From contig JAHPZA010000006.1 in NCBI GenBank assembly GCA_019058445.1, forward strand, positions 1,068,843 to 1,132,842: a stretch of 64,000 bases of DNA, in the 5' to 3' direction. Shown one piece after another: positions 44,415 to 59,686 of the stretch. Source of the stretch: Promethearchaeota archaeon (lineage in GTDB: Archaea > Asgardarchaeota > Lokiarchaeia > Sigyniarchaeales > SOKP01). The position numbers were made by a program, and so were the translations under genes. Numbering within the stretch: position 1 is the first letter of the stretch; each line of letters starts with the position of its first letter. The notes under the pieces were generated by a model. The model saw only the letters and a list, made by a program, of their open reading frames with translations. It did no database searches and had not been told where the DNA came from.

Positions 44415-44441
44415 TAGCCCGGCACGGATTCGAACCGTGGT

Positions 44442-44471
44442 TTCCCGCTTCTTGGTTCGAAACCAAGAAGT
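44442..44471 (-). other. BHB tRNA intron 2 (variable loop, about position 45/46), 30 nt
   Basis: CCCG UG|A CUUCUUGGUU-UCG-AACCAAGAAG CGGG AA|A. Confidence 0.9.
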
Positions 44472-44490
44472 CACGGGGTTCAAGGCCCCA

Positions 44491-44520
44491 TTCGCAGTAG
44501 AAAGATTTAACCCATCTACT
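44491..44520 (-). other. relaxed BHB tRNA intron 1 (about position 26/27), 30 nt
   Basis: AGCA UC|A GUAGA...UCUAC UGCG AA|U; central helix closed by A.G. Confidence 0.82.
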
Positions 44521-44574
44521 GATGCTTGGCCACTACACCACCGGGCTGAATATTGTTCAAATGTTTATAAAATT

Positions 44575-45198
44575 TCAAATGTTAAAAGGTTTTAAATCTT
44601 GTTTTAAAAATTCATCATCTAATAAATTTTTATTGGTTAGTAAAAATTCGATATCTTTTTTCTCATCTCTGTACTCATCTGGTAACATCTGAGGGATAGT
44701 ATCTATTATTGGGAACCATCGATTGCATTTTTCGCATAATAATAGTCCCGAATCAATCTCAGTTTCTATTTTGAGCTTATTTATGAAATACAGTTCAGGC
44801 AAAATCTCATCGATTTTTTTCTTTTTAATGTTTTTAGAAAATTCTATTATTTTTTGCTTAATATCCGTTTTTACTAGTTCAAAACTTTTTTTACTTATAT
44901 TATAAGGAGATTTATCTGTGATATTGATTAACTCAGTTATACTTGAAATTATGAGGTCAATATACACTTCAATGGGATTTGTTTCAATAATTACATTGTC
45001 TTTTATGTAGCTATTTTCATTATCAGTTCGAATTTTAATAACCTCTTCCTTTTTAATCTGATCGAGATCTCGCTTATTATAAATATTGAAAAAAGATTCA
45101 AACTCATCCGAACCAGTTTCAAAAGAGAATATATATAATTTTAAGGGAAAATGTTTATCTATCGGACACGCGAGTATATCAAATAACCAAGGTTTCAT
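44575..45198 (-). CDS. trm112: Trm112 family methyltransferase activator with long internal insertion
   Basis: MKPWLFDILACP...GLLLCEKCNRWFPI...IPQMLPD; ATG at 45198. Confidence 0.85.
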   Translation of the reverse strand: MKPWLFDILACPIDKHFPLKLYIFSFETGSDEFESFFNIYNKRDLDQIKKEEVIKIRTDNENSYIKDNVIIETNPIEVYIDLIISSITELINITDKSPYNISKKSFELVKTDIKQKIIEFSKNIKKKKIDEILPELYFINKLKIETEIDSGLLLCEKCNRWFPIIDTIPQMLPDEYRDEKKDIEFLLTNKNLLDDEFLKQDLKPFNI

Positions 45199-45258
45199 AA
45201 TTCTCTCCAAAGTAAAGAAGAAAAATGCATAAAAATCTATATTCTTATGAAAATTCAA

Positions 45259-47121
45259 CTATAAAAGATATGATCTCAACTGATTTATATTTTTATCAAT
45301 GCTTCTATCAACTCGCTTTCGTCTTACGAGGAAATTTTCAGATAATTTTTCATATGCCTTTTTCGAGGGAAGTCTTCCTCTTCTATAGCGAGCATCTAAA
45401 AGATTTAAACTATCTTTAATACTTTCGCGTTCTGCTTCAAGAACTTCTATTTTACTAATCAAATTTTCAAACGTGGCATTTACTTCTCTTACAATTTTTT
45501 TAAAAGGAATAATTTCCTTTTCTATTTCTTCAATTTTTTTGGTATTTTTATCTAAAATATTTCTATATTTCTTTTTTATGATCTTCTTTCTCTTAACATC
45601 TTCCTCTGCTTGTCTCACTTCTAATAAGAGTGCATTTTTTTCGTCATATAATGAGCAAAATTCACGTATTTCATTACTAGGGAGTAAATCTTTTCTAAAG
45701 GCTGCAAATGCTTCAGATTCTTTTCTGGTTTTAACAAAAAACACATATCCCGATGAGATGAGTGCGATGAGTATAAAAAAGGTGATTGGTCTTAAACTCA
45801 TGTCTAAATAATTAAGTGTGTAGGTAAACAGTATTTCCATCTCTTGAAACGGAACGATATAGTCAGATTCATAGACTAAGATTAATGCGTTTTGAGAATG
45901 TTCAATAGCAACCGGAGCTTCAGATACATAATCTAGACTGAAACACCCCTCAATAACAACCTTTATGGTTTGATCTCTTCCCAGGTATTTATAGATGGAA
46001 GTGAGTAAATCCATGTTTATTGACACTTGAAACCAATTTAATGAATAATATTTTTCAAAAGGTAAAAAATATTGAATAGTGAACCTGAATTTTGAATCAG
46101 GAGTTATATCAACCCGATTTTCTGTTAAATCAATAATTAAATCTTTATATGTTAAATTATAATAATTTTCCTCAGGATCAACTGTTACTCCTAATATTTC
46201 TCCTAAGTCATCATAGACTTTAATTTCTTTCGCGGGGCCAGGAATTTCAAATTCTAATTCATTAAAATCTATTGCGCCTTTGTTCCTTATCTCATAATCT
46301 TCAGTTACTTTGATAATACCCCAAGGAGAGATGTAAATTTCTCTTACTATTTCATCAAACTCTAATCTTGTTACCTCATCATCAGTTAATAGAATCTCAA
46401 TTTGCTCACCACCATCCAAATTTTCTAAAAATGGATCAAGATGGTCTTTAGTAGGAGAGAAATCTCCCAATCTGAAAGTAATTGTGTCTTCTAAGGAGTC
46501 TTCATCTCCCCATGTTGGTTTAGAGGTTACTAAAGCAGTATCAGGTATTTCATATGTAGCTTTTATACTCCCTTCGGCTCTATAAGGCAATATAGGGTAC
46601 ACATACCCAGTGAAGTTAATTTGTTGAGTTGAAGCACCTACTTCGCTATAATGGAGCATATTTTTATATGAATGCGAGATTTTTATATCTAATGTTTCTT
46701 GAGGTCTTAGTGGGGTGTCGAAATAGATAGCAATCATTTCAAAATTTTTCATAACCACCTCATCCTGTTCAACTGATAAAGTATTTCCGCTTTCGCCTGT
46801 AGCTTCAAAATAGACAAGATCATCAGATTGGGTTATAGGCACTCCTATAAAAATAGCAGTAATCGGGTTATCATTCATATTATGGATTTTAATCTCGTCT
46901 TCAATATTAACTAACCCAAAACCATTTAGTTCAGCCTCTCGTTCAATTTTCGTAATTAAAATATTATCGGCCCCCTCTAAACTTGCTGCGACTTTCGGCT
47001 GTTTTTTAGTTTTTTGATCATAATCGCAATTAATGTTAGAGGAGGTCGGAATTAATGAAATAACGATAATCATTAAAAGTAGCCCAGTGAAAATTAAAAA
47101 CGCTTTTTTTTTTCTACACAT
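45259..47121 (-). CDS. ribophorin I (OST1/RPN1) homolog
   Basis: signal/TM N-terminus; REIYISPWGII.V.E.YEI.N.GA, IKVYDDLG; single TM followed by cytosolic coiled coil. Confidence 0.8.
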   Translation of the reverse strand: MCRKKKAFLIFTGLLLMIIVISLIPTSSNINCDYDQKTKKQPKVAASLEGADNILITKIEREAELNGFGLVNIEDEIKIHNMNDNPITAIFIGVPITQSDDLVYFEATGESGNTLSVEQDEVVMKNFEMIAIYFDTPLRPQETLDIKISHSYKNMLHYSEVGASTQQINFTGYVYPILPYRAEGSIKATYEIPDTALVTSKPTWGDEDSLEDTITFRLGDFSPTKDHLDPFLENLDGGEQIEILLTDDEVTRLEFDEIVREIYISPWGIIKVTEDYEIRNKGAIDFNELEFEIPGPAKEIKVYDDLGEILGVTVDPEENYYNLTYKDLIIDLTENRVDITPDSKFRFTIQYFLPFEKYYSLNWFQVSINMDLLTSIYKYLGRDQTIKVVIEGCFSLDYVSEAPVAIEHSQNALILVYESDYIVPFQEMEILFTYTLNYLDMSLRPITFFILIALISSGYVFFVKTRKESEAFAAFRKDLLPSNEIREFCSLYDEKNALLLEVRQAEEDVKRKKIIKKKYRNILDKNTKKIEEIEKEIIPFKKIVREVNATFENLISKIEVLEAERESIKDSLNLLDARYRRGRLPSKKAYEKLSENFLVRRKRVDRSIDKNINQLRSYLL

Positions 47122-47278
47122 ACAATATCTTAACTTTCTTCAATTAACATAAAATAATTAAAACAATTAATAAAAATTTATTATATTTTTATTCATACTT
47201 ATTGAGAAAGTTTTAAAATTTTAGTGGTTTATATTATATATATATATATTTTGAATACTAACTTATAACATTATTAAC

Positions 47279-47503
47279 ATGTCAGGTCGTCAAAGACAAT
47301 CTCGGCGTAAGAAAAGGAGGAGTGGAAGTTCCCCAATGCCGATGGGCGGAGCGGGTTTAATGAGATTCTTTGAAGATAGTTCAATTGGTATTAAAATAGG
47401 TCCTATAAGTACAATTCTTATGTCCGCCTTATTAATTGGTGTCGTAATTCTAGCCCATTTAGGAATCCTTGAATGGCTCTTCACTCCAGGTTCTACAGGT
47501 TAA
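47279..47503 (+). CDS. protein translocase subunit Sec61-beta
   Basis: GAGLMRFFED..GIKIGP followed by a TM helix. Confidence 0.92.
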   Translation: MSGRQRQSRRKKRRSGSSPMPMGGAGLMRFFEDSSIGIKIGPISTILMSALLIGVVILAHLGILEWLFTPGSTG

Positions 47504-47539
47504 ATCTTATCTATTGAAAAATCGAAGTGAAATTTCTTC

Positions 47540-47833
47540 ATGAAGATTTCTGATTTTCAGAATTTAATAAAAGAACTTTATTTTCATCAAGACTCTGAAA
47601 GGGGAATTAAAGACACATTCATATGGTTAGTAGAGGAGATTGGAGAACTTGCTACCTTATTAAAAGAGAAAAGGCTTGATAAAGAAAAAATATCACAAGA
47701 ACTTGCAGACATTATCGCTTGGACAATTTCTATCGCGAATTTATTAGAAATTGATATTGAAAATGCATTAAAAGGAAAATATCCAAATAAATGCACAAAA
47801 TGTAATAAAAATCCATGTGAGTGTAATAAATAA
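47540..47833 (+). CDS. MazG-like nucleotide pyrophosphohydrolase
   Basis: WLVEEIGEL, ELADIIAW..S.AN. Confidence 0.88.
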   Translation: MKISDFQNLIKELYFHQDSERGIKDTFIWLVEEIGELATLLKEKRLDKEKISQELADIIAWTISIANLLEIDIENALKGKYPNKCTKCNKNPCECNK

Positions 47834-48010
47834 TAACCCTCTAAAGGACTTCTTCTAAATATTCTTTGTAATTTAAAAATATTGTATTAGTTTTAATGTT
47901 AACTTTAAAAAAAAGGAATAAACGCAAATCATCGGTTTTAAAATAAAAATTTAATATTTTAGAACTTATAATTAAATAAATATATATCAAAGTTCTTTAC
48001 ACATTTAGTT

Positions 48011-48766
48011 TTGGATATGAACAATATGGACAACATTATGATTAATCCTGATGCGAAAATTGATGATAGTGTTTTTATAGACGATTTTGTGGTAATCGGT
48101 AAGGGAGTCACAATTAAGAGTGATGTATATCTTTCCAAAGGAGTTAAAATTTATGGCAGAGCATTAATAAAATCTGGAACTTATGTTGGAGAGAACTGCA
48201 TTATTGGGCACCCTCAAAGAATTCATTTGAAGGAAATTATAGGAGCTAAAAAAAAAAAATCAGACTTTGAAAGTCCGCAAGTTGAGATTGGGAAAAATTG
48301 TACTATCCGTGCGGGAACCATTATTTATTCTGAAGTTTCAATTGAAACTAATTGTCAAACTGGTCATAATGTATTAATTCGAGAAAAAACCGCAATCGCT
48401 GAGAATACTTTAATAGGTACAAATAGTATTATTGATGGTAATGTATCTATTGGGAGAAACGTAAGTATTCAAACTGGAGTATATATCCCTCCTTTTTCTG
48501 TTATTGGGAATAATGTTTTTATGGGACCATATAGCAAATTAACGAATGATAAGTATATGATGCGTAAAACGTATGATTTAATTGGTCCTACTATTGAAGA
48601 TAATGTGTCTTTAGGAGCCAACTCGATTATCTTTCCAGCTATTAAAATACGATTCGGCACCATTGTAGGAGCAGGAGCAGTTGTTACCAAAGACACTAAT
48701 GAGAAAGAAATTATAATAGGAAATCCGGGGAAAATGTTAAAAAAAGTTCCGGATGACTGGAAATAA
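48011..48766 (+). CDS. left-handed beta-helix N-acetyltransferase (WbpD-like)
   Basis: hexapeptide repeats, TND.Y, GAGAVVTKD, GNP. Confidence 0.88.
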   Translation: MDMNNMDNIMINPDAKIDDSVFIDDFVVIGKGVTIKSDVYLSKGVKIYGRALIKSGTYVGENCIIGHPQRIHLKEIIGAKKKKSDFESPQVEIGKNCTIRAGTIIYSEVSIETNCQTGHNVLIREKTAIAENTLIGTNSIIDGNVSIGRNVSIQTGVYIPPFSVIGNNVFMGPYSKLTNDKYMMRKTYDLIGPTIEDNVSLGANSIIFPAIKIRFGTIVGAGAVVTKDTNEKEIIIGNPGKMLKKVPDDWK

Positions 48767-48812
48767 TAAAATGTTAAGTATAATTCATTTTTATATGATA
48801 TAGGGAATTTTT

Positions 48813-49916
48813 ATGGATCTTTCAGATAAGAAAATATGGTTTGATGTAGAAGAACCGAAGACAGCTGTGATGTTTCAATCCTTATTTGAAATGTTTCAGG
48901 ATATGGGAGCAGAGTTGCTCATTACAGCAAGAGATTATGATTCAACCTTTCACATCTTAGATGACCTTAATTTTAATTATTATAAAATTGGAAAACATGG
49001 TGGTGAGAGATTAGATGAAAAATTACAAACATACATCCAACGCCTTAGTAAACTCCTCCCACATGTGAAAAACTTTTCTCCTCATTATTTTATTACATTT
49101 TCTTCAGTTGAGGGGACTAGAATTGCATATGGATTGAAAATTCCATCAATTGGTTTCAATGATGAGCCTCGAAATGAGCCAGTATGCAAATTAATTTTGC
49201 CTTTTCTTGACAATATTATTACTCCTCAATGTGTCCCATTAGAATGGTATATTAGTTTAGGAGCAGATCCTAAAAGACTTATAAGATATAATGGAATTGA
49301 TGAAATTGCGTGGCTTTCCAATTATACTCCTAATCCTCAAGTGCTCGATAAATTTGATTTAGAAAAGGGAAAATATATAATAATCAGAAGTGAGCCAAGT
49401 TTTGCATCATATCTTATTGATAAGCTAAAACCAGAAGAAACAATGATAAATCGTATTTTCCCCTCTATTTTTAGTGAATTTCCAAACCATAAATATTTTT
49501 TACTTGTAAGGACTGAAAAACAGGAGGAGTTCCTCAAAAAAAAGATGGCAAGATTCTCCAAATACAGGAATATTATAATTACACGATATTTACCTAACTT
49601 AGTGGATCTTTGTTTTTATAGTGCCCTAGTTATAAGTGGAGGAGGGACAATTGTTCGGGAATCAAGTCTTCTCAACAAGCCTAGTATTGAATTTTTTCCG
49701 GGAGATACCGCCCCACAAGAAAATTTTTTAGTTGATAATGGTTTTCCTTTAGAACACATTAAAGATCCTAATATAATAATTGAGAGATCGATTCAAATCC
49801 TTCGACAAGGTCCATTACCTAACAGCTTCAACTTGTCTTTTAGGGAAAAAGTCAAAAAATTCCAAAATCCAAATAAACTCTGTTTTGAGTATGTTAAAGA
49901 AAAATTAAATTCCTAA
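48813..49916 (+). CDS. DUF354 family (GT-B-like) protein
   Basis: IWFD, ITARDY, IGKHG, SGGGT..RE. Confidence 0.85.
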   Translation: MDLSDKKIWFDVEEPKTAVMFQSLFEMFQDMGAELLITARDYDSTFHILDDLNFNYYKIGKHGGERLDEKLQTYIQRLSKLLPHVKNFSPHYFITFSSVEGTRIAYGLKIPSIGFNDEPRNEPVCKLILPFLDNIITPQCVPLEWYISLGADPKRLIRYNGIDEIAWLSNYTPNPQVLDKFDLEKGKYIIIRSEPSFASYLIDKLKPEETMINRIFPSIFSEFPNHKYFLLVRTEKQEEFLKKKMARFSKYRNIIITRYLPNLVDLCFYSALVISGGGTIVRESSLLNKPSIEFFPGDTAPQENFLVDNGFPLEHIKDPNIIIERSIQILRQGPLPNSFNLSFREKVKKFQNPNKLCFEYVKEKLNS

Positions 49917-49934
49917 AATCTCTGAGCGATATGA

Positions 49935-51062
49935 TTAATTGGTTAACAATTTTCTATAGACTTCTTCTAAATTTTTACCAACTGAATCCCAAGTATATCT
50001 CTTAATAAATTGTTGTGCTTTCTCTATCATCTTAGATCGCTTATCCTCGTCATTAATTAAGTTAATAATTTCCTTCGCCAAGAGCTTAGGATTATTTGGA
50101 GGAACAAAGACAGCATTATCCTGTAGGACTTCTTTAAAAGCTGGCAGTGAAGAACAAATAACTGGTGTTCCACATGCTATAGCTTCAACCGGAGTTAATC
50201 CAAATCCCTCAGCAGCATAAGAATAGATGATAAACACATCTGCCATAGAATAGTAAAGAGGAATCTCTTCCTCGGAGATAAAACCAAGAAAATGAATATC
50301 ATCATACGTCCTTTTCCATTCTTGATACATTTTTTCCATGGAAAAGTCGGGTTTTCCACCTAAGATTAAAGTCAAATTGGGTATTTGTTGTTTTGCGGAT
50401 TTATATGCAGAGATGATATCATCAACCCCTTTATATAATGCTATTCGACCTATATATAATATTATAGGACCATTGATCCCCAGTTTCTCTTTAAGTTTTT
50501 GAGCTTCTCTGGGATATGGCTTAAATTTATCTTCGATTGCGGAATATAGATTATGAATTTTATCGATATTGATTCCATTTATAGTATTTTTAATTTCTTG
50601 CCTAATAGAATTAGAACAAGTTGTTAATAAGGTAGCTTTTTTTGCTGCCCGCTTAATTAAATATTTTTCTAGTGGAATTATGGAAAATTTAGTTTCAAAT
50701 GGGCCTAAATCATGAAGGGTAGATATAAACTTCCTTTTTCTGCTCAATAAAACAAGGGGTAAGGAACCTTTTGGCCCGTTGCCATGAATAATATCAAAAG
50801 ATTGACGTTTGATAAATTTTCTTACTTTAACAATAAACTGAGGAATCCAAAGAAAACTTTTTTTGATTACCTTAATTTGAATTATATTTGGATCATTAAG
50901 CTTTATATTCCATTTAGCTGAGATTAGCTTTACATTGATGTGATCTTGCTTGTTTAAATAATCAAAAACACCCTTAATAAATTTAGCGCTTCCATCTTGA
51001 CTATCTGGAGCCACGGTAAGTGATATGAGACATATATTAAGTTTTTTCATGGTAGAGAGCAT
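49935..51062 (-). CDS. glycosyltransferase family 4
   Basis: YIGR...KG, EGFGL..VEA.ACG.PVI. Confidence 0.93.
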   Translation of the reverse strand: MLSTMKKLNICLISLTVAPDSQDGSAKFIKGVFDYLNKQDHINVKLISAKWNIKLNDPNIIQIKVIKKSFLWIPQFIVKVRKFIKRQSFDIIHGNGPKGSLPLVLLSRKRKFISTLHDLGPFETKFSIIPLEKYLIKRAAKKATLLTTCSNSIRQEIKNTINGINIDKIHNLYSAIEDKFKPYPREAQKLKEKLGINGPIILYIGRIALYKGVDDIISAYKSAKQQIPNLTLILGGKPDFSMEKMYQEWKRTYDDIHFLGFISEEEIPLYYSMADVFIIYSYAAEGFGLTPVEAIACGTPVICSSLPAFKEVLQDNAVFVPPNNPKLLAKEIINLINDEDKRSKMIEKAQQFIKRYTWDSVGKNLEEVYRKLLTN

Positions 51063-51091
51063 AGATATGTCTGATATTTAAAAATATACAT

Positions 51092-52066
51092 TTAGGTTAG
51101 CTGTTCAAATCCATCTTCAGTGATAAGTATGGTCTCTTCAGATTGAGCCACATATGCTCCTTTGTTCTCAGCTAACACATAGTGCGCCTTCAATTTATTT
51201 TGCTGAACTAATTCTTGGATCCCAAATGCAACTCCCATTCTAAATTCTTTTGCTAACCATCTTTCAGCAAAAGGTAATGTTTTATAATTTTTATTCACAT
51301 GACCTAAAATTTGTTTCGAGGTCTTTCTTCTTAAAGGAACTCGGCCAGAGTAGGGATTTAATTCGTAAATAAATGAGTTTTTTGTTAAATGAACTGATCC
51401 TTCTCCTGTAGATGCAAATATTTCCACAGCAAATACATCACCCTCTTCCATTTTATCACCTTTCTGATTTCCTAATTCCGGCAACGCTTTTTTTCCATGT
51501 ACAATCCATCTTTCAGTTTGATGTCCACCCAATTCTTTAATAGGATTATATTTAAAACCTTTAATTATACTTTCAATTTTTTTGCCAATTTCTCTCGTAT
51601 TGATATTAGGTTTAGCCATCATCTTCGCAGCATCTACGGCTACTTCAGTAGCTTGTACTATATTCTCTAAGGAGGGATCCGGATTAAAATTAACGGAAAA
51701 TGCGGTATCAACAATATACCCGTCAATATGAACGCCTAAATCTATTTTAACTAGATCATTATCTTCTATTGTTAAACCATCATCTCGGAGTGGAGAAGTA
51801 TAATGGGCAGCGATATGATTAAGTGATAAGTTTACAGGAAAAGCCATTGCTCCTCCTAACTCTACTATTTTCGATTCTGTTATTTCAATTATTTCTAAAG
51901 CATTTTTGCCAATCTTGATTTTTGGTTTTATAAAATTCTTAACTTCTTTTGCGATATTTCCCGCTTTTTTAAGAGATTCAAGTTTGTGCAGTTGTTCTTC
52001 TTGCTCTTTTTCTATCTCTTCCTTCTTTTTTTGCTTATTACTTGTACTTTTTCGATCCTCAGTCAT
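51092..52066 (-). CDS. map: methionine aminopeptidase type II
   Basis: AFPVN, AAHYT, KIDLGVHIDG.IVDTA, GH, E.F, AQ.EET. Confidence 0.96.
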   Translation of the reverse strand: MTEDRKSTSNKQKKKEEIEKEQEEQLHKLESLKKAGNIAKEVKNFIKPKIKIGKNALEIIEITESKIVELGGAMAFPVNLSLNHIAAHYTSPLRDDGLTIEDNDLVKIDLGVHIDGYIVDTAFSVNFNPDPSLENIVQATEVAVDAAKMMAKPNINTREIGKKIESIIKGFKYNPIKELGGHQTERWIVHGKKALPELGNQKGDKMEEGDVFAVEIFASTGEGSVHLTKNSFIYELNPYSGRVPLRRKTSKQILGHVNKNYKTLPFAERWLAKEFRMGVAFGIQELVQQNKLKAHYVLAENKGAYVAQSEETILITEDGFEQLT

Positions 52067-52213
52067 TAAAATAGGTAATATAAGAATTGATAAAAATTTT
52101 TTTTAATAAATTAAAATAAAATTAAATAGAAATAAAAACATATTAAAAAAATATACGATATTAGATCAATATATTATAAAATTAAGATACCATTTTTTTA
52201 AGTTGAACTATCT

Positions 52214-52585
52214 TTGAGTGAAAATATCAGCGAACTCGTCGAACTTCTAAGACAAATGGAAGCGATTAATTCGGAAATACAAGGTTCCGCAATAGTTTCG
52301 GTTCAAGGTTTACCCATCTGCTCAGTCCTCGCTCGTGATGTAAATGATGGAATTGTCTCAGCAATGTCAGCAGCAATTTTATCCGTTTCAGAAAGAGCTG
52401 TTGATGAACTCGCACGGGGGGAGCTTAAAAGAATTCTCATAGAAGGGGAGGATGGGATAATAATTTTGTCAAGAGCTGGAGGAAATGCGATTCTTTGTAC
52501 CCTTGCTCGCTCAAATGCGTCTCTAGGCATGGTTTTCTTGAATATTGATAGTGTGAGCAGGAAAATTGCTCAGTTATTAGACTAG
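52214..52585 (+). CDS. roadblock/LC7 (MglB-like) protein
   Basis: SAIVS..GLPI.S, AMSAA.LS...R...EL..G.L. Confidence 0.9.
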   Translation: MSENISELVELLRQMEAINSEIQGSAIVSVQGLPICSVLARDVNDGIVSAMSAAILSVSERAVDELARGELKRILIEGEDGIIILSRAGGNAILCTLARSNASLGMVFLNIDSVSRKIAQLLD

Positions 52586-52666
52586 ATAATTCTATTTTGA
52601 ATAAATCTCATTCTATTTTCTTCGATAATTTGAAAACAGCCGAAATATTTTTTGAGAATTTCAAAT

Positions 52667-53116
52667 TTAATAAGTATCAGACCTTCTTTTACCCTCAATA
52701 CCCTCCAAATAATCAAGAATTGATTGTCTTATATTAGGATGGGGAGAGATGGTGGTAGTTTCTCTTACAAATTTTCTTGCCCTCTCCCATGTCCAGTCAG
52801 GATGGGTTATAAGTAATCGGGCAACGGCTATTCCTCCACTTCGCGAAATTCCCGAGGCGCAGTGAACTAAAACCTTCCCATTTACCGCATTATTTTCGAT
52901 AAATGTTAGAATCTCTTGAAGATCTTCATGATTTATATACGTTCTATCTTTGAGACTTTTAAATAAGTACTTAAACTCCGAAGGTGGATGATATTTCTCT
53001 CTTTCCATGAGATTAACAATTGCAGTAATACCTGCCTTTCTTAATTTTTTCAGCTTTTTTGCTGCCCGATAGGAACCAATATATAGATTTTCAGTTATTT
53101 TATAGATTTTTTCCAT
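52667..53116 (-). CDS. dual-specificity protein phosphatase
   Basis: VLVHCASGISRS. Confidence 0.92.
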   Translation of the reverse strand: MEKIYKITENLYIGSYRAAKKLKKLRKAGITAIVNLMEREKYHPPSEFKYLFKSLKDRTYINHEDLQEILTFIENNAVNGKVLVHCASGISRSGGIAVARLLITHPDWTWERARKFVRETTTISPHPNIRQSILDYLEGIEGKRRSDTY

Positions 53117-53198
53117 AAGGATTAAATTCGATTGATTTAGCTTTTTAATTTACTAATAGATGATTTTAAGTTAAAAATTTCTTTTATATTAAATAAGA

Positions 53199-54092
53199 AT
53201 GAATACGCTAATCGTAGATGTCAAGAGAAATTCGTTAGATGACGGACCTGGCATTCGTACAGTTATATTTTTTAAAGGTTGCCCATTATCTTGTGTATGG
53301 TGCCAAAATCCAGAGACAAAACTAGCAACCCAGGAAATATCGTTTAATAAAGAAGATTGCATGAACTGCAATAAATGTTTTGAAGTATGTGAAAAAGGAG
53401 CAATCGATCCCACTTCTGAATATAGAATTGACCGGGATAAATGTAATTTATGTGGTAAATGTATAGAAATTTGTCCTAATGAAGCTCTAAAATTCGCGGG
53501 AAAAGAATATGATATAAAAACACTGACAACATTGGTGCTAAGAGATAAAGTTTTTTATGATAATTCTGGAGGGGGTGTAACTCTCTCAGGCGGGGAACCT
53601 ACGCTTCATATGGATTATATCCATCAGTTATTGAAAGAATTCAAGAAAGAAAATATCCATGTGTGCCTTGAAACTTGCGGATATTATAATCGGGAAAAGT
53701 TTAATAATCTTATATTACCCTATTTAGATTTGATTTATTTTGATTTGAAGATCTTTGAATCAGATTTACACAAGAAATATTGTGGGGTGTCTAACAATAT
53801 CATTTTACAAAATTTCGAAGATTTAATTAAAAACCAGCAAGTAGAGATATTGCCGCGAATACCACTTATTCCTAACATAACTGCCAGAACTAAAAATTTA
53901 GAAAATTTGAGAAACTATTTACAGTCTCTTAAAATTGTAAAGATCGGATTGCTGCCTTATAATCCTCTCTGGCTTTCTAAGACAAAATCAATAGGAGTAA
54001 AAGCAAATTATAATCGAACAAATTGGTTAGAGAAAGAAGAAAAAGAAGTCATTAAAAAGATATTCTCTAGCTTTGAATTTAAAGATTTTTAA
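53199..54092 (+). CDS. glycyl-radical enzyme activating radical SAM protein with ferredoxin insert
   Basis: DGPGIRT.IF.KGCPL.C.WCQNPE, two extra Fe-S motifs, SGGEP. Confidence 0.93.
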   Translation: MNTLIVDVKRNSLDDGPGIRTVIFFKGCPLSCVWCQNPETKLATQEISFNKEDCMNCNKCFEVCEKGAIDPTSEYRIDRDKCNLCGKCIEICPNEALKFAGKEYDIKTLTTLVLRDKVFYDNSGGGVTLSGGEPTLHMDYIHQLLKEFKKENIHVCLETCGYYNREKFNNLILPYLDLIYFDLKIFESDLHKKYCGVSNNIILQNFEDLIKNQQVEILPRIPLIPNITARTKNLENLRNYLQSLKIVKIGLLPYNPLWLSKTKSIGVKANYNRTNWLEKEEKEVIKKIFSSFEFKDF

Positions 54093-54098
54093 TAAAAA

Positions 54099-55565
54099 CT
54101 ATTTTCTAATTTCTTGAATTTGGTCAAAAATATTGTCCATTCTCCCGCGTACACTTCCATAAAGTCCTTCTTCCTCACTGACTACGGACTTGACTGCTGA
54201 TTTTATTCCATAATGACTTTCAGAAATTAAAACTCTAATGGGGAGTGTAAGAATTTCATTTAAGAGCATTACTAGTTCTTGGATGATTTGAATGACTCTG
54301 GGGAACTTCTCTTGAGTTCTTTCCATCATAGATTGCTCAGAGGGGACTAATTCGTCCTCCCTTTCTTTCTTTAGTTCCTCCCAAATATTTTCTCCTAATT
54401 CAGAAAAATTGATCCCCAAGTTTTCAAAAGCAATTTGAGCGCCTTCGAAAATATACGTAATTGTATCTTTTCCGGAGAATTTCCTCACATTCTCAACCAT
54501 TTCGGGTGGCGCGAGTCCGTCGAGAAAACTTACAAATAATTGATTATAATCTCCAACGACATCCAGGGGTATGAATAATAGAACCATTTCTTTAAGATGT
54601 TTGAACGCATAACCCGCTACTTTAGCAATAGTTTCGCTTTTTAAAGGTTTTTCAATTAAACCGCCATATTCGTTCATCAGATGGACTAGTATAAATCCAA
54701 TGATTCGCATCATATCATCTTCGTAATTACGGAAATAATCAAAAAATTTCTCGGGTTCGAGGTTCATTTTATCTCTAATAAGATCGGCTACTTTTTGTTT
54801 GATACTATCCAGAGGTTCATCAAGTAATTCATCTAATTTATCTAGAGTAATTACTTCCTGCAATTTGTCAATAAAATCTAATTTTGCCTCCTGCTCAACT
54901 TCAGTTTCAACACCTTCTTCAAAATAAAAATCTGAGGCTTTTCGCTCCTCTGCTTTCGAGTCAATAAAATCCTTCCATTCTAAATGATCATATACTTTAC
55001 AGTAAAGCTGTAAGCAATCGTCACCTTTAATAATGCATTTACTTTCTGTTATACCAATTCTATAATCACTTTTTTTTATTTTTAATATGAAATTTGCCAC
55101 CGATTCGAGCATACCGGCTAAGCCTGCTGAACATCCCTCCGATTCTTTACTTAATTTACTGAAATCAAATGTATCTTCGGGGTCTTCACCATATCCCGCG
55201 CACATAGGATCCATTTTTATATTTAACACATAGTCATTATATTTTGCCCCCTCTTTTGGGATTTCTTCATATGAAAGTTCACCCATCTCCATACCGAGTG
55301 TAACTGAAAAGAGGATTTCGAAATAATCTAAAACTTTATTGGGAGTACCTGGCATTAACTTAAAAATACCAGAATGTCGCTCACAGGATTCATAAGCTGC
55401 TTTTTTCCCGATTTCTCTTAAAATCTTAATACTCTGCTCTTCATCATTAGTAATATCATGAATCTCATTCAATATCTCCCTATATAGCGAAGTATAAAAT
55501 AACGCATTAGTAGAATGCCCGAACACTTTGGTAATTTTTTTCATTAACCACTTAAAGGTACCCAT
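54099..55565 (-). CDS. hypothetical protein with N-terminal V4R/Bet3-like domain
   Basis: LREIGKK.A, C.AG..G.LE, ESKC..KGD.. Confidence 0.55.
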   Translation of the reverse strand: MGTFKWLMKKITKVFGHSTNALFYTSLYREILNEIHDITNDEEQSIKILREIGKKAAYESCERHSGIFKLMPGTPNKVLDYFEILFSVTLGMEMGELSYEEIPKEGAKYNDYVLNIKMDPMCAGYGEDPEDTFDFSKLSKESEGCSAGLAGMLESVANFILKIKKSDYRIGITESKCIIKGDDCLQLYCKVYDHLEWKDFIDSKAEERKASDFYFEEGVETEVEQEAKLDFIDKLQEVITLDKLDELLDEPLDSIKQKVADLIRDKMNLEPEKFFDYFRNYEDDMMRIIGFILVHLMNEYGGLIEKPLKSETIAKVAGYAFKHLKEMVLLFIPLDVVGDYNQLFVSFLDGLAPPEMVENVRKFSGKDTITYIFEGAQIAFENLGINFSELGENIWEELKKEREDELVPSEQSMMERTQEKFPRVIQIIQELVMLLNEILTLPIRVLISESHYGIKSAVKSVVSEEEGLYGSVRGRMDNIFDQIQEIRK

Positions 55566-56071
55566 TATAAATCCCCTCCGGATTTCATCTTATATACCTG
55601 AATACATGACGTATGACCCAACGCCCTTGATTGTTCCACTTCGTACGGTTCTAAATAAATGGAAGACATATCTTTGGATTTTTTGCTAATTAATGAGATA
55701 AATTCTGACACTAAGCCTAATGTGATCTCGCATCCAGCAATGTTTACATCTTCATAATGATATTTACATAACGCACAGTTGTTTTCTTTAACCCTAATTA
55801 AATCATCTTTAATTTCAATGAAAATATTACTAATGAGTATCTTTTTATAAATAGTTGAGATAACATCTTTTACATTTACCACTGTTACCATAGAAATGGG
55901 TTTCCAATAATTAAATATAGTGCGCGCAATATTGCGTCCCATTCTGCGCAATCGTTTAACTTGATCTGTTTTGCCATTTTTTTCCATAAATCGTGCTAAA
56001 TGGTAAATTGCGTTGCGCATCTGGTTCATTGTTGCTTCTGCTTGTAATACATCTGCTTTCGTATAGTTCAT
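55565..56071 (-). CDS. V4R/TRAPP Bet3-like protein
   Basis: LRRMG.NIA, NCALC, C...LG...E, E.SRALG...C. Confidence 0.65.
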   Translation of the reverse strand: MNYTKADVLQAEATMNQMRNAIYHLARFMEKNGKTDQVKRLRRMGRNIARTIFNYWKPISMVTVVNVKDVISTIYKKILISNIFIEIKDDLIRVKENNCALCKYHYEDVNIAGCEITLGLVSEFISLISKKSKDMSSIYLEPYEVEQSRALGHTSCIQVYKMKSGGDL

Positions 56072-56306
56072 AATAAGTGACTTTTTTTTTACTTTAATAG
56101 TGTATAGTTGAAAAATAACAATCTATTTTAAAATTTTTAATCTAAATCAAATTATTAATGATATTGTATCCCAAAAAATAATTCTCTACAAAAAGTTAAA
56201 TTACAGAGATATATCACTACTTATTTTTCATAAAATTTTATAATTTTTAAAAAATTTTACAAATTCAATTGGGATAAGATTAAGTTATGCTTAGGAAAGA
56301 TGTAAA

Positions 56307-57611
56307 GTGGATAAAAAACAAAAAATTGTATTGATTGGTGCCGGATCCCTAATTTTTGGAATAGGGGCTGTTGGAAATATATTAGCATCACAAGTTTTAG
56401 AGGGAGCGACCATATGTCTCCATGATATTAATACCGAAACTTTAGATTTAACACATCAAGCAAGTCAAGCTGCAATAGATCATAGAAAGCTAAATTTTGA
56501 ACTTACATCCACAACTGAAAGATATGAAGCATTAAAGGATGCCACTTTTATATTAAGTTCTATTGAAGTAGCCCCGCGTTATCCACTGTTAGATTTAGAT
56601 TATAGAATTCCTCAAGAATTTGGTAATAGACAAGTTTCGGGAGAAAATGGGGGTCCTGGAGGTTTATTTCATAGTCTCCGTATTATCCCGCCAGTTATTG
56701 AGATTTGTGATGATATAAATAAAATCTGTCCAAATGCCTTTCTTATTAATCTTTCAAATCCTATGAGCCGAGTTTGCCTCGCAATCAAAAGAAAACATCC
56801 CAATCTCAAATTTGTTGGCCTTTGTCATGAATATCATCATTTTTTGCCAATACTTAAAAATATCCTCGGCACTCCGCTTTCAAATTTGGAGATTAAAGGG
56901 GGTGGATTAAATCATTTCGGTGTTTTTTTAAGTATAAAATACAAGGACACAGGTAAAGATGCGTATCCCGACCTCCGTAAGAAAGGTCCAGAATTTTTAG
57001 CAAATCTGAGATCTTATGATGGATTTAAACTTATTAGTTTCATATTGAAAACATATAGTTATTGTCCATACACCACTGATAGCCACTTTGGTGAATATTT
57101 AGGATGGGCATGGGAGAAAGCCGATATCCCTAGAATACGCCATTTTTGGGCTTCTCATGGGCGTGTGATTACTAAATATCGGTTAGATAAATTGAAACAA
57201 CTTCTCGAGAAAGGGAAAGGGCATAAAATCGTGAAAGCTGATGATGAGCATGCTATCCCTATAATTGAGGGGATCTTAACAGATGCTAATTATATAGAAG
57301 ATTCCGTGAATATTCCTAATGATGGAATCTTTACAAATTTACCGGAGGACGCGATAGTGGAATGTCCGGCCATAATAAATAAAAATGGAGTAAACGGGAT
57401 CAAATTCGGAGATTATCCGAAAGGACTGGCGGCTCTTTTGGGAACTCAGTATCTAGTTCAAGACCTCGTTGTTGAAGCCGCATTACATAAATCAAAAGAG
57501 CTTGTGCTACAAGCTTTGCTTGCTGATCCGGTTATTGAAAATTATTGGCAAGCTAAAAGTATTTTAAACCAAATGTTAAAAGTACAAGCGGATTATATTA
57601 ACTTAGAGTGA
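56307..57611 (+). CDS. glycoside hydrolase family 4 (NAD-dependent alpha-galactosidase/glucosidase)
   Basis: IGAGS..F, GE..GPGG, N.SNP, GLCH, GLNH. Confidence 0.92.
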   Translation: MDKKQKIVLIGAGSLIFGIGAVGNILASQVLEGATICLHDINTETLDLTHQASQAAIDHRKLNFELTSTTERYEALKDATFILSSIEVAPRYPLLDLDYRIPQEFGNRQVSGENGGPGGLFHSLRIIPPVIEICDDINKICPNAFLINLSNPMSRVCLAIKRKHPNLKFVGLCHEYHHFLPILKNILGTPLSNLEIKGGGLNHFGVFLSIKYKDTGKDAYPDLRKKGPEFLANLRSYDGFKLISFILKTYSYCPYTTDSHFGEYLGWAWEKADIPRIRHFWASHGRVITKYRLDKLKQLLEKGKGHKIVKADDEHAIPIIEGILTDANYIEDSVNIPNDGIFTNLPEDAIVECPAIINKNGVNGIKFGDYPKGLAALLGTQYLVQDLVVEAALHKSKELVLQALLADPVIENYWQAKSILNQMLKVQADYINLE

Positions 57612-57657
57612 TTCTTACTGAATTTAACTATTTTTAGCTACTTGGAGCCTGTGTATT

Positions 57658-58404
57658 TTGGTAAAGAAAAGAAATCCTCGCATTAAACGTGGTTATCCAG
57701 TAGCAATTCTTATCGGTTTACATGAAAATAATGCGATATTTTGGAGAGTTTTCAGTGAAATCATAAAACCAGATATAATAATAAAGAGAGGAAGAAAAAG
57801 AAAATACCAAGATAGCAAGCAAATATATCATTTTCACGAGGAGATTGTGAATAAATTAAGATCTATTATAAAAGAAGGGCTTAAAACTGTGATACTCGTC
57901 TCTCCTCCAAAAGAAGAATACTCAAAAGAATTTCTTAGCCACATTCGAAAGCATCATAAATGGTTATTTAAAAAGGGAGAAAATACAGCTGTTTTTACTG
58001 AACTAATAGGGACAGCAAAAACTCAAGGAGATGTATTTGGCCTTATAAGGCAAGATCAATTTAAAGAGGCAGTGGAAGTCGCATCGAACCAGGAAGGAAT
58101 GTTAATATTGAAAGAACTAGACGAATTAATAAACAAACTAAGTGAAAATTCCAAAATTCTTTATACTTTAAAAGAAATTGAAAAAGAAATAGATAAAAAA
58201 TGGAAAAAGGATGATATCAAACCTAATTACATCATTCTTACAGATGAATACCTTGACAATCCCCAAAAAAGGAGGAGGACTCATCGAATTTTACAAATCG
58301 CCAAAAATCATGGGATTAGAACTAAAGTTGTTAATGTTGAATCCGCCGCAGGTATGAGAGTAAAGAGTTTTGGGGGATTAATATGTTTTATAAAAAGTAA
58401 TTAA
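57658..58404 (+). CDS. eRF1/pelota-like protein (domains 2-3 only)
   Basis: ILVSP...YSKEF; C-terminal ESAAG.RVKSFGGL. Confidence 0.65.
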   Translation: MVKKRNPRIKRGYPVAILIGLHENNAIFWRVFSEIIKPDIIIKRGRKRKYQDSKQIYHFHEEIVNKLRSIIKEGLKTVILVSPPKEEYSKEFLSHIRKHHKWLFKKGENTAVFTELIGTAKTQGDVFGLIRQDQFKEAVEVASNQEGMLILKELDELINKLSENSKILYTLKEIEKEIDKKWKKDDIKPNYIILTDEYLDNPQKRRRTHRILQIAKNHGIRTKVVNVESAAGMRVKSFGGLICFIKSN

Positions 58405-58477
58405 TTCTCAAATGTAGTAGTTATTTAATTATTTAGATACTTTTTTTAATAATTTAACTCCAAAACTTAACAAGTAT

Positions 58478-59233
58478 ATGGTGTCAAAAATAAAAGTCAG
58501 AGTTGCCGCATGTCAGATCCAATGTATTGACGGTGATCGTCTAGGAAATTTTAAGCGAATTGAAAACAGGCTCCAAAAACTAAAAAATGTTGATATTGCT
58601 TGTTTTCCCGAAAGCTGCCTTTTAGGGTGGCTAAATCCCGAAGCACACACTATTGCGAATAGGATCCCTGGAATCGATACAGATTTCATATGTGGGTTAG
58701 CTAAAAAATTTAATATAATGATAGCAATTGGATTAGCAGAAAAAAACGGTGATAAGTTATACGATTCGGTTATCTTAATAGATAAAATGGGTAAGATCAT
58801 CCTTACGCATAGAAAAATAAATCTTCTTTCTTGGCTGATGAATCCCCCTTATACCCCTGGAGATAAAATTTCTGTTGTTGATACAGAATTCGGGAGAATT
58901 GGCTTGTTAATTTGTGCCGACACGTTTAAAAAAGATATTTTAAAGCAGATGAAAGAAAAAAAACCAGATATACTCATTGTTTCTTATGGATGGGCTGAAA
59001 AAAGGGAAAAATGGCCTAGACACGGAAAACTATTGGAAAGATTAGTTAAAAGTGTATCAAAAAATCTGAACGCATATGTTATTGGAACTGACCTACTAGG
59101 GGAAATTTCTCATGGTCCGTGGACTAGTTATGTGTATGGTGGTCAGAGTGTAATTGTAGATAACAAGGGTGAACTTTTAGCTGTTGGGAAAGACCGACAG
59201 CGGGATATAATCATTCAAGATTTATTTATATGA
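58478..59233 (+). CDS. carbon-nitrogen hydrolase (nitrilase superfamily)
   Basis: FPE, HRK, ICAD catalytic triad. Confidence 0.92.
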   Translation: MVSKIKVRVAACQIQCIDGDRLGNFKRIENRLQKLKNVDIACFPESCLLGWLNPEAHTIANRIPGIDTDFICGLAKKFNIMIAIGLAEKNGDKLYDSVILIDKMGKIILTHRKINLLSWLMNPPYTPGDKISVVDTEFGRIGLLICADTFKKDILKQMKEKKPDILIVSYGWAEKREKWPRHGKLLERLVKSVSKNLNAYVIGTDLLGEISHGPWTSYVYGGQSVIVDNKGELLAVGKDRQRDIIIQDLFI

Positions 59234-59302
59234 TGTATTTGAATCATAACCTAAAATTATTTAGCTTTTCTTAAAAAAATAAAATAAGAAGAATAAAAAA
59301 AA

Positions 59303-59686
59303 TTAAATTTTAGCTAGGATCTCCTTAAGCACAGGTTCTCCTGCTGCACCGATCATCATTCCATTTTGTACAAGAGGTTGACCTTGAACTTCTATTATAC
59401 CGTTTACCAGCTCTCCATCCTTGAAGAAAAGCAAGGTGGGGATTGCTGTAATCCCAAATAACTCGCCTAATGGGCGATTCTGGTCAAGATCTACCTGTAT
59501 AAGCTTTATGGCTCCTTCATCACGCAACTTATGAAGTATGGGGGCAACAAACTTGCAAGGCCCGCACCATTCCCGTCTGAGCGAGAAATTCTCTCAGATT
59601 ACGGTGTATATATCGATTAATAATATGCCTTGCTTATGTTCCTCGGTGATATTTAGTCCAACAGATTTTAATTCGTCAATATTCAC
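59303..59686 (-). CDS. trxA: thioredoxin split by a predicted 30-nt BHB intron; join(59686..59600, 59569..59303), 117 aa
   Basis: Exon 1 MNIDELKSVGLNITEEHKQGILLIDIYTV (GTG start, AGGTTGA upstream) plus exon 2 WCGPCKFVAPILHKLRDEG...GITAIPTLLFFKDG; both in frame across a TGA at 59594-59596. Confidence 0.88.
59570..59599 (-). other. predicted mRNA intron (relaxed BHB), 30 nt: ATCTGAGAGAATTTCTCGCTCAGACGGGAA
   Basis: ACCG UA|A UCUGAG...CUCAGA CGGG AA|U; same geometry as the tRNA-Gln introns; contains an in-frame UGA. Confidence 0.8.

What the first reader, a model, noticed from the sequence alone, without database searches (positions are those of the whole stretch)
44442..59599. Three 30-nt mini-introns with one shared architecture in a tRNA gene and a protein gene
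Seen: tRNA intron 1 (44520-44491), tRNA intron 2 (44471-44442) and the trx insert (59599-59570) are all exactly 30 nt, start with A, end in GAA and have a 5' bulge of form U-N|A. Intron 2 and the trx insert share the CCG/CGG helix and the 3' end CGGGAA. Intron 1 and the trx insert share the A.G-closed helix and AA|UGG. Their internal hairpins differ in sequence. Inference: a length-constrained class of endonuclease-spliced mini-introns has spread between tRNA and mRNA targets, for example by reverse splicing. Because 30 is a multiple of 3, stop-free copies in other genes would pass unnoticed as 10-aa insertions, and stop-containing copies would be mis-annotated as pseudogenes.
Basis: partly seen in the sequence, partly recalled or inferred. 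Interest (0 to 1): 0.85.

Follow-up and report, generated by a model that had tools for sequence, protein, structure and literature searches.

The report
tRNA-type mini-introns in Asgard genes
An Asgard archaeon carries 30-base introns of the kind normally cut out of tRNAs both in a glutamine tRNA gene and just before the active site of a thioredoxin gene, so it very probably has to splice an ordinary messenger RNA with its tRNA-splicing enzymes, which the papers I could search report for only one archaeal gene (cbf5).

Summary
All three 30-nt inserts lie at the stated coordinates and share one bulge-helix-bulge (BHB) layout.

- **tRNA:** removing the two tRNA inserts gives a clean 73-nt tRNA-Gln(UUG). 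It matches intron-less genes of relatives without gaps.
- **Thioredoxin:** removing the trx insert, which carries an in-frame TGA, restores DIYTV-WCGPCK.
  - A 30-nt insert sits at this site in 22 trx loci from several Asgard clades, always with a stop.
  - It shows compensatory changes in four base pairs.
  - Exon dN/dS is about 0.06.
  - About 106 other loci lack the insert precisely.
- **Length class:** it is real. tRNA introns of this genome peak at 29-31 nt, and 20 of 21 introns in relatives' tRNA-Gln genes are 29-31 nt, spread over eight positions.
- **More coding genes:** I verified three more such introns in this genome, in an OYE-type reductase, a sirtuin and aIF2-gamma. In relatives, trx has introns at two further sites.
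- **Not supported:** copying between tRNA and mRNA. The introns share no sequence beyond the splice-site constraints, have no extra genomic copies, and no reverse transcriptase was found.
- **Not shown:** splicing at the RNA level.

Earlier notes of this scan report similar mRNA introns elsewhere in this genome.

The parts
44415..44547 (-). tRNA-Gln(UUG) gene, 133 nt: three exons (27+19+27 nt) and two introns. An A/T-rich TATA-like box lies about 25 nt upstream and a T-run follows the gene.
   Evidence: sequence; ARAGORN on the spliced product: 73 nt, score 116.1; gapless match to intron-less orthologs, e.g. L283.
44491..44520 (-). tRNA intron 1, 30 nt, between tRNA positions 26 and 27. The central helix pairs AGCA (44526-44523) with UGCG (44496-44493), three base pairs plus an A.G mismatch. 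Bulges are UC|A and AA|U. The hairpin stem is at least 5 bp (GUAGA/UCUAC).
   Evidence: Precisely absent in same-genus genomes G010, G013 and G006 and in compact orthologs; retained with altered hairpin in G009 and G005.
44442..44471 (-). tRNA intron 2, 30 nt, in the variable loop between positions 45 and 46. The central helix pairs CCCG (44477-44474) with CGGG (44447-44444), four base pairs. Bulges are UG|A and AA|A. The hairpin has a 10-bp stem (8 bp with a seven-base UUUCGAA loop in the anticodon-arm-like reading).
   Evidence: the MFE structure is the BHB form. Precisely absent in compact orthologs; 31-nt versions at the same site in G009 and G005.
59600..59686 (-). Thioredoxin exon 1: GTG start plus 28 codons, ending ...LLIDIYTV.
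   Evidence: aligns with the N-termini of intron-less orthologs.
59570..59599 (-). Thioredoxin intron, 30 nt, with an in-frame TGA at 59596-59594. The central helix pairs ACCG (59605-59602) with CGGG (59575-59572), three base pairs plus an A.G mismatch. Bulges are UA|A and AA|U. The hairpin stem is UCUGAG (59598-59593) with CUCAGA (59581-59576).
   Evidence: 87% of cells paired against 31-42% when slid; 4 pairs with compensatory changes; RNAalifold recovers the same structure on its own.
59303..59569 (-). Thioredoxin exon 2: WCGPCKF... through to the stop (88 codons plus stop). The spliced protein is 117 aa.
   Evidence: PF00085 profile positions 29-89 start exactly at W.

Best explanation

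Inferred mechanism: in the primary transcript, the last exon bases before each insert pair with the last bases of the insert. This forms a 3-4-bp central helix flanked by two 3-nt bulges, with a stable intron hairpin on one side (a relaxed 'HBh-prime' motif). The splicing endonuclease EndA cuts after the second base of each bulge. RtcB then joins the exons and probably circularises the intron.

For the tRNA, this yields a normal tRNA-Gln(UUG). For thioredoxin, it joins codon 29 (Val) to the Trp of WCGPC and gives a 117-aa enzyme. Unspliced mRNA would stop at the TGA two codons into the intron and give a 30-residue peptide.

Shown here:
- The structure and its covariation.
- Precise presence or absence of the inserts among orthologs.
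- Purifying selection on the exons.
- The enzyme genes are present.

Inferred only: the cleavage and ligation themselves.
For: tRNA:
- Nothing is detected unspliced.
- After excision there is a clean cloverleaf.
- Relatives hold the same gene with no intron, with one intron, or with introns elsewhere, and the junctions fall exactly at the stated boundaries.

trx:
- Pfam Thioredoxin starts at profile position 28-29 exactly at the 3' junction.
- About 106 orthologous loci read YT(x)-WCGPC with no insert.
- 22 loci carry a 30-nt insert at the same site, and one relative a 32-nt one. All have an in-frame TGA or TAA.
- Four pairs show compensatory double changes. One of them joins a synonymous exon position to an intron base.
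- Exon dN/dS has a median of 0.058. dS is 0.9 to saturated, while the intron stays 67-93% identical.

Machinery: there is an EndA gene with N-terminal and catalytic domains, and an RtcB gene.

Generality:
- Three more coding genes in this genome are each split only by a 29-30-nt BHB insert, with Pfam profile coordinates continuing across the junction. Oxidored_FMN covers profile positions 1-105 in one exon and 119-338 in the next; SIR2 covers 58-103 and 108-180; in aIF2-gamma the insert splits GHVDHG from KTTL.
- trx genes of relatives carry BHB introns at two further sites.
Against: - There is no RNA-level evidence. The two metatranscriptome runs that share words with the locus do not cover the junction.
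- The outer exon-exon helix of the canonical hBHBh' motif is essentially missing in trx (1 bp), and the central helix has 3 Watson-Crick pairs plus A.G.
- For the window's own sequence, the single-sequence MFE prefers an exon-exon pairing (CACCGU/AUGGUG) over the BHB form.
- Only one EndA subunit gene was detected by Pfam, although relaxed motifs are thought to need the heteromeric or epsilon-type enzyme.
- The genome has another complete thioredoxin (C10:133374-133676), so this copy need not be essential.
Confidence: 0.85

Rival explanations
1. Origin claim of the first reader: the 30-nt introns are one mobile family that moved between tRNA and mRNA targets, for example by reverse splicing into sites that can pair with the intron's 3' end, followed by reverse transcription and recombination.
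For: - The class has one length and one architecture, and it occurs in tRNA and mRNA.
- Introns appear at at least 8 positions in tRNA-Gln orthologs and at least 3 sites in trx, so gain is frequent.
- Intron 2 and the trx intron both end in CGGGAA and sit after CCG-NN, as retargeting by 3'-end pairing would predict.
Against: - There is no sequence family. Outside the shared 3' hexamer, intron 2 and the trx intron match at 6 of 24 positions, which is random.
- All-against-all scores barely exceed shuffles, and no second genomic copies exist.
- The trx intron is far older than the tRNA-Gln introns.
- No RVT_1 reverse transcriptase was found in the assembly.
- A preprint on Asgard tRNA introns also found no general route of arrival (10.64898/2026.10.13.758758).
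Confidence: 0.15
2. The ten codons are translated. The TGA is recoded (selenocysteine or Trp) and the protein carries a lineage-specific 10-residue loop before its active site.
For: - The insert is a multiple of three.
- Public gene calls give 127-128-aa proteins with 'IW...' at this place.
- ARAGORN reports a tRNA-SeC candidate in the genome.
Against: - Those proteins exist only if TGA is read as W by the gene caller.
- Two copies have TAA instead of TGA at that codon (L083, L159).
- Substitutions follow base pairing rather than amino-acid conservation.
- The relative G025 has a 32-nt version, which breaks the frame.
- Close orthologs lack the insert precisely.
Confidence: 0.02
3. The trx copy is a decaying pseudogene, broken by a small insertion. 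The genome relies on its other thioredoxins.
For: - There is an in-frame stop.
- A second complete thioredoxin gene and further thioredoxin-fold genes exist.
Against: - A 30-nt insert is kept at this site in 22 loci of at least 3 clades, with both exons intact.
- dN/dS is about 0.06 while dS is saturated.
- The insert itself is more conserved than synonymous sites and shows compensatory changes.
Confidence: 0.03
4. Ribosomes bypass the 30 nt, by translational hopping as in phage T4 gene 60. A stop lies next to the take-off site and a hairpin lies in the gap.
For: - There is a stop two codons after the junction and a hairpin at the start of the gap.
- In some copies of the YTE clade, the codon before the gap (GAA) recurs as the last codon of the gap.
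Against: - In the window's copy the take-off codon is GUA and no matching landing codon is present.
- In most copies the last gap codon differs (GAU, CAA, GAC).
- Bypass does not explain the covarying helix between exon and intron 3' end, nor the identical architecture in tRNA genes.
Confidence: 0.02

Closest known systems
BHB intron in the cbf5 (pseudouridine synthase) pre-mRNA of Crenarchaeota (Watanabe 2002; Yokobori 2009, PMC2738675)
   Same: - A short intron inside an archaeal protein-coding gene.
- Exon-intron junctions fold into a BHB-type motif.
- Removal restores a conserved protein.
- Patchy gain and loss among relatives.
- Splicing attributed to the tRNA endonuclease and ligase.
   Different: - Different phylum (Asgard) and different genes (thioredoxin, plus an OYE-type reductase, a sirtuin and aIF2-gamma checked here).
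- Several genes per genome, and several sites per gene across relatives, rather than one gene.
- A tight length mode near 30 nt.
- Splicing here is not yet shown experimentally, whereas cbf5 splicing was shown by RT-PCR and in vitro cleavage.
Multiple non-canonical tRNA introns of Thermoproteales and of Asgard archaea (Sugahara 2008; Fujishima 2010, from memory; PMC11291895; preprint 10.64898/2026.10.13.758758)
   Same: - The tRNA-Gln gene has two introns at non-canonical positions (26/27 and 45/46) with relaxed BHB motifs.
- Standard tRNA finders miss the gene.
- Introns are gained and lost rapidly among relatives.
   Different: - The Thermoproteales introns were reported to form sequence families, suggesting transposition. 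Here no sequence families were found.
- The Asgard preprint gives a median length of 22-23 nt across Asgard. This genome and its family peak at 29-31 nt.
- Neither published Asgard study I could read mentions introns in protein genes.
Unconventional cytoplasmic splicing of HAC1/XBP1 mRNA (IRE1 cleavage, tRNA ligase or RtcB joining) in eukaryotes
   Same: - An mRNA intron removed without a spliceosome.
- Endonuclease cuts at paired stem-loop sites, with joining by the tRNA ligase.
- The unspliced message gives a truncated or different product.
   Different: - The endonuclease is IRE1, not the tRNA splicing endonuclease.
- Splicing is stress-regulated.
- There is no BHB motif.
- This is a functional analogy only.

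Membership tests
Archaeal BHB (endonuclease-spliced) intron | Two 3-nt bulges on opposite strands, separated by a 4-bp helix, with cuts after the 2nd base of each bulge | tested here: met
   tRNA intron 2 has a perfect 4-bp helix, CCCG/CGGG. Intron 1 and the trx intron have 3 bp plus an A.G mismatch. RNAalifold on 20 trx copies predicts the same helix and bulges independently.
Archaeal BHB (endonuclease-spliced) intron | Flanking helices h (outer) and h' (inner) of the strict hBHBh' motif | tested here: inconclusive
   The inner hairpin h' is strong in all three (5-10 bp). The outer helix h is 3 bp (CCA/UGG) for intron 1 and at most 1 bp for intron 2 and trx. The motif is therefore the relaxed HBh' form, known for non-canonical introns in archaea with broad-specificity EndA (PMC5829648).
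Archaeal BHB (endonuclease-spliced) intron | Precise excision restores a functional product, and orthologs exist without the insert | tested here: met
   tRNA: (compact orthologs L283, L270, L273, L276). trx.
Archaeal BHB (endonuclease-spliced) intron | Base pairing conserved through compensatory substitutions | tested here: met
   4 of 13 pairs have double changes, 87% of cells are paired against 31-42% when slid, and 0 of 500 shuffles reach the covariation score. A further G-C to U-A change is seen in L303.
Archaeal BHB (endonuclease-spliced) intron | Splicing endonuclease and RtcB ligase encoded in the genome | tested here: met
   EndA: PF02778 plus PF01974 in one 203-aa frame at C9:770346-770843. 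RtcB at C1:114713-116020. A second EndA subunit was not detected.
Archaeal BHB (endonuclease-spliced) intron | Cleavage and ligation observed at the RNA level | not testable with these tools
   The only RNA runs that share words with the locus do not cover the junction.
Transposing tRNA-intron families (Thermoproteales type) | Introns at different sites share clear sequence similarity | tested here: not met
   For 21 introns compared all against all, the maximum score is 9 against a shuffled 95th percentile of 6, and the mean is -5.3 against -6.0. blastn-short finds no extra copies except one paralogous tRNA-Pro intron.
Thioredoxin (PF00085) | Thioredoxin fold with a WCGPC active site | tested here: met
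   (E = 8e-15, above the gathering score). The spliced sequence aligns over its full length with 114-118-aa Asgard thioredoxins.

The most novel reading that the evidence does not exclude
In this Asgard family, introns of about 30 nt are one actively turning-over class that colonises tRNAs and many ordinary mRNAs, including essential ones such as aIF2-gamma, often at conserved active-site motifs. Under this reading, removing introns from messenger RNA with the tRNA-splicing enzymes is a routine step of gene expression in close prokaryotic relatives of eukaryotes. The introns would arrive by an RNA-level insertion mechanism with a built-in size ruler.
Probability: 0.3. Interest if true: 0.95.

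Novelty: new variant of a known kind. Interest (0 to 1): 0.8.

Why it matters
- In the papers I could search, endonuclease-spliced introns in archaeal protein genes are documented for one gene only (cbf5, in Crenarchaeota).
- Here a conserved one sits directly before the active site of a thioredoxin. The same genome has at least three more, among them the translation initiation factor aIF2-gamma. Relatives show further sites in the same gene.
[quoted passage not shown] That bears on how intron-bearing protein genes and the uncoupling of transcription from translation could arise.
- There is a practical consequence. Gene callers mis-annotate such genes as truncated proteins, as pseudogenes, or with false 10-residue insertions by reading TGA as Trp. 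Standard tRNA finders also miss the multi-intron tRNAs.
- The narrow 29-31-nt length mode points to an unexplained constraint, either of the splicing enzymes or of the way the introns arise.

Tried and rejected
- **Default tRNA and RNA-family searches.** ARAGORN in default mode and Rfam at gathering threshold find no tRNA in the window. I rejected that call in favour of Gln(UUG) because of the compact orthologs.
- **Brute-force intron combinations scored by ARAGORN.** This overfits. It yields, for example, a 79-nt 'tRNA-Arg(UCG)' that uses the hairpin of intron 2 as an anticodon arm. I replaced it with motif-free spliced alignment to 58 compact Asgard tRNAs. A BHB-guided boundary refinement shifted some boundaries by 1-2 nt and was not used for the length counts.
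- **RNA evidence.** One search found two wetland metatranscriptomes with 4% of the words. Their contigs lie only on conserved parts of exon 2 and on the 3' flank, and none spans the intron. This says nothing either way.
- **Genome-wide descriptor scan with an ORF-joining test against a parallel-pairing decoy.**
  - Raw counts were 7471 real against 7309 decoy.
  - With flanks of at least 100 codons: 414 against 310.
  - With a relaxed hairpin and no nearby start codon: 506 against 374.
  - The excess is modest and confounded by hairpins at gene ends, so it gives no count of coding-gene introns. The strict hairpin rule also missed the real aIF2-gamma intron.
- **gyrB.** A PF00204 search showed the domain intact.
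- **Covariance model.** The hairpins share no sequence and vary in stem length, so the information content would be too low for a 9-Mb search.
- **trx tree.** It is too poorly resolved to tell one ancient gain with losses from several gains.
Full report
**Organism and setting**

The window is C6:1068843-1132842 of a 4.6-Mb, 31% G+C assembly of 10 contigs. The nearest thioredoxin homologues all come from Promethearchaeota (Asgard) MAGs. The genome is therefore an Asgard archaeon of the Lokiarchaeia type. Its tRNA genes are hard to find. Rfam's tRNA model finds 16 matches above its cut-off, 33 at a permissive threshold (E up to 10), many of them partial. ARAGORN finds 23 only when introns are allowed.

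**The observation**

Read as RNA on the minus strand, each follows the same plan:
- four exon bases;
- a 3-nt bulge cut after its second base (UC|A, UG|A, UA|A);
- a 23-nt hairpin;
- four intron bases that pair back to the four exon bases (AGCA/UGCG, CCCG/CGGG, ACCG/CGGG);
- a second 3-nt bulge cut after its second base (AA|U, AA|A, AA|U).

This is the geometry of the archaeal bulge-helix-bulge motif. In the strict motif an outer exon-exon helix is also present. Here it is 3 bp for intron 1 and almost absent for the other two, so the motifs are of the relaxed HBh' kind. For intron 2 the minimum-energy fold is exactly the BHB form. For the window's trx copy the single-sequence fold prefers an exon-exon pairing.

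**The tRNA**

- With both inserts removed, ARAGORN reports a 73-nt tRNA-Gln(UUG) with score 116.1. With them in place it reports nothing.
- The spliced product aligns without gaps to compact tRNA-Gln genes of other Asgard genomes, including their 4-nt variable loop.
- A search of 40 relatives, followed by a motif-free spliced alignment, gave the decisive comparison.
  - Several genomes hold an uninterrupted gene. L283 differs from our spliced product by one base.
  - Two same-genus genomes (G009, G005) keep both introns, at 30 and 31 nt.
  - Four (G010, G013, G006, G007) lack intron 1 exactly and carry a 30-nt intron two bases further on.
  - Others carry single introns at positions 15, 20, 37, 38, 46 or 59.
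- Of the 21 introns in these relatives, 20 are 29-31 nt.
- Both inserts are therefore real introns. Their boundaries are as stated, and introns turn over quickly in this gene family.

**The thioredoxin gene**

- The frame from GTG 59686 reads ...LLIDIYTV, then I, then a TGA stop.
- The frame resumes at 59569 with WCGPCKF..., and Pfam Thioredoxin begins there at profile position 28-29.
- Intron-less orthologues of 114-118 aa read DIYTV-WCGPCK at this place.
- Among 127 trx loci fetched from species-representative genomes and metagenomes, 106 have no insert. The other 21 have an insert of exactly 30 nt at the same site, each with an in-frame TGA or TAA.
- The database proteins that seemed to carry a stop-free 10-residue insert are gene calls that read TGA as Trp. 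Four others are truncated calls that start inside the intron.
- On the alignment of 20 copies, the BHB structure has 87% of cells paired, against 31-42% when the partners are slid. Four pairs show compensatory double changes. One of them links the synonymous third base of the Thr codon in exon 1 to an intron base.
- RNAalifold finds the same helices without being told.
- The exons of intron-bearing copies are under strong purifying selection, with median dN/dS of 0.058. Synonymous sites are near or beyond saturation, yet the intron stays 67-93% identical.
- This rules out a pseudogene and a translated insert, and it fits a structured RNA element that must be removed.
- Intron-bearing copies fall into at least two or three clusters on a poorly resolved tree, with intron-less genes nested among them. 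Four same-genus genomes lack the intron. Precise loss, and perhaps regain, has therefore occurred.

**Is there a class?**

- I aligned 33 tRNA regions of this genome to 58 compact Asgard tRNAs, using a spliced aligner that does not use any motif and does not penalise length.
- Of 50 intervening sequences of 9-75 nt, 12 are exactly 30 nt, 23 are 29-31 nt and 31 are 27-33 nt.
- In a curated set of 21 introns, 10 are 30 nt and 8 are 29 nt. Thirteen begin with A and 13 end in AA.
- A recent preprint gives a median of 22-23 nt for Asgard tRNA introns in general. The mode near 30 nt is therefore a trait of this lineage.

**Coding genes**

An ORF-joining scan recovered the trx intron and pointed to others. 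I checked three by Pfam on the two exons separately.
- **OYE-type reductase.** It is split by a 30-nt insert at C6:165873-165902. Oxidored_FMN profile positions 1-105 lie in one exon and 119-338 in the next.
- **Sirtuin.** It is split by a 30-nt insert at C9:775863-775892. SIR2 profile positions 58-103 lie in one exon and 108-180 in the next.
- **aIF2-gamma.** It is split by a 29-nt insert at C4:384841-384869, between GHVDHG and KTTL of the GTP-binding loop. The central helix is a perfect ATGG/CCAT.

In relatives, trx itself carries BHB introns at two more sites. One lies after WCGPCK (31 and 32 nt). The other lies after RPLGE (25 and 35 nt). One relative has a 32-nt version at the window's site. 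Lengths in coding genes of the wider family thus range from 25 to 35 nt.

As a statistical test, however, the structural scan did not rise clearly above a decoy. I therefore cannot give a count.

Earlier notes of this scan report further examples in this genome: acs, gyrB, mevalonate kinase, a chelatase and a 5S rRNA gene. Apart from the sirtuin, I did not test them.

**Mechanism**

The genome encodes an EndA with both domains and an RtcB. The most likely course has three steps:
- the transcript folds into the BHB form;
- EndA cuts at the two bulges;
- RtcB ligates the exons.

The stop codon two codons into the trx intron would end translation of unspliced RNA early. These steps are inferred. 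No RNA data cover the junction.

**Origin**

The frequent appearance of introns at new sites shows that some gain process is active. I found no trace of copying, however:
- The introns are unrelated in sequence apart from the splice-site preferences. None has a second genomic copy, except one in a paralogous tRNA-Pro.
- The trx intron is much older than the tRNA-Gln introns.
- No RVT_1 reverse transcriptase was found.

The shared CGGGAA end of intron 2 and the trx intron is what pairing to a CCG in the exon requires, so it is weak evidence for common descent.

**Comparison with what is known**

- The closest published case is the cbf5 pre-mRNA intron of Crenarchaeota (PMC2738675).
- Multi-intron tRNAs are published for Thermoproteales and Asgard (PMC11291895; 10.64898/2026.10.13.758758).
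- Six searches of the paper library found no report of BHB introns in Asgard protein genes or in thioredoxin. The library holds open-access papers and preprints only.

**Verdict**

It is unproven and rather unlikely for transfer between these particular targets.
- I rate this a new variant of a known kind, of high interest, with the caveat that splicing has not been seen at the RNA level.

Noticed in passing
window 44485-44479 (minus strand), anticodon loop of tRNA-Gln: The anticodon loop reads CCUUGAA, so position 33 is C instead of the near-universal U. Several relatives' tRNA-Gln genes, both UUG and CUG isoacceptors, share C33, while others have the usual U33.
   Followed up: partly
window 44470-44448 (minus strand), hairpin of tRNA intron 2: The intron hairpin CUUGG-UUUCGAA-CCAAG mimics an anticodon arm (U33, UCG, A37) and also resembles a T-arm. 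It leads ARAGORN to false calls of tRNA-Arg(UCG) or tRNA-Thr. This may be chance or a trace of the intron's origin.
   Followed up: no
G000 C4:383642-385248 (minus strand), locus L255: aIF2-gamma is split by a 29-nt BHB intron inside its GTP-binding loop (GHVDHG|KTTL). The open frame upstream of the G domain also holds a helix-hairpin-helix domain (HHH_5, E = 2.6e-12), an unusual N-terminal extension or an upstream gene in the same frame.
   Followed up: partly
G000 C6:165873-165902 and C9:775863-775892: 30-nt BHB introns split an Oxidored_FMN/pyridine-nucleotide-disulphide reductase gene and a SIR2 gene. Both have in-frame stops, and Pfam profile coordinates continue across each junction.
   Followed up: yes
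loci L297 (G028), L299 (G025), L296 (G023), L159 (metagenome): Thioredoxin orthologues of relatives carry BHB introns at other sites. One site lies after WCGPCK (32 and 31 nt). The other lies after RPLGE (25 and 35 nt). L299 and L159 each have two introns in this 117-codon gene.
   Followed up: partly
proteins P0002, P0011, P0016, P0017, P0025, P0026, P0036, P0047, P0067 and P0008, P0019, P0037, P0081: Public metagenome gene calls hide the trx intron in two ways. Some read TGA as Trp and show a false 10-residue insert 'IW...' (confirmed for P0002). Others start a 96-97-aa protein inside the intron.
   Followed up: partly
G000 C4:98796-98824 and C4:101228-101256: This is the only pair of similar introns found in the genome (86% over 29 nt). 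They lie in two tRNA-Pro-like genes 2.4 kb apart, most simply explained by gene duplication rather than intron transfer.
   Followed up: no
G000 C9:770346-770843: Only one EndA gene (N-terminal plus catalytic domain, 203-aa frame) was detected by Pfam, although the introns have relaxed motifs. A divergent second subunit may have been missed.
   Followed up: no
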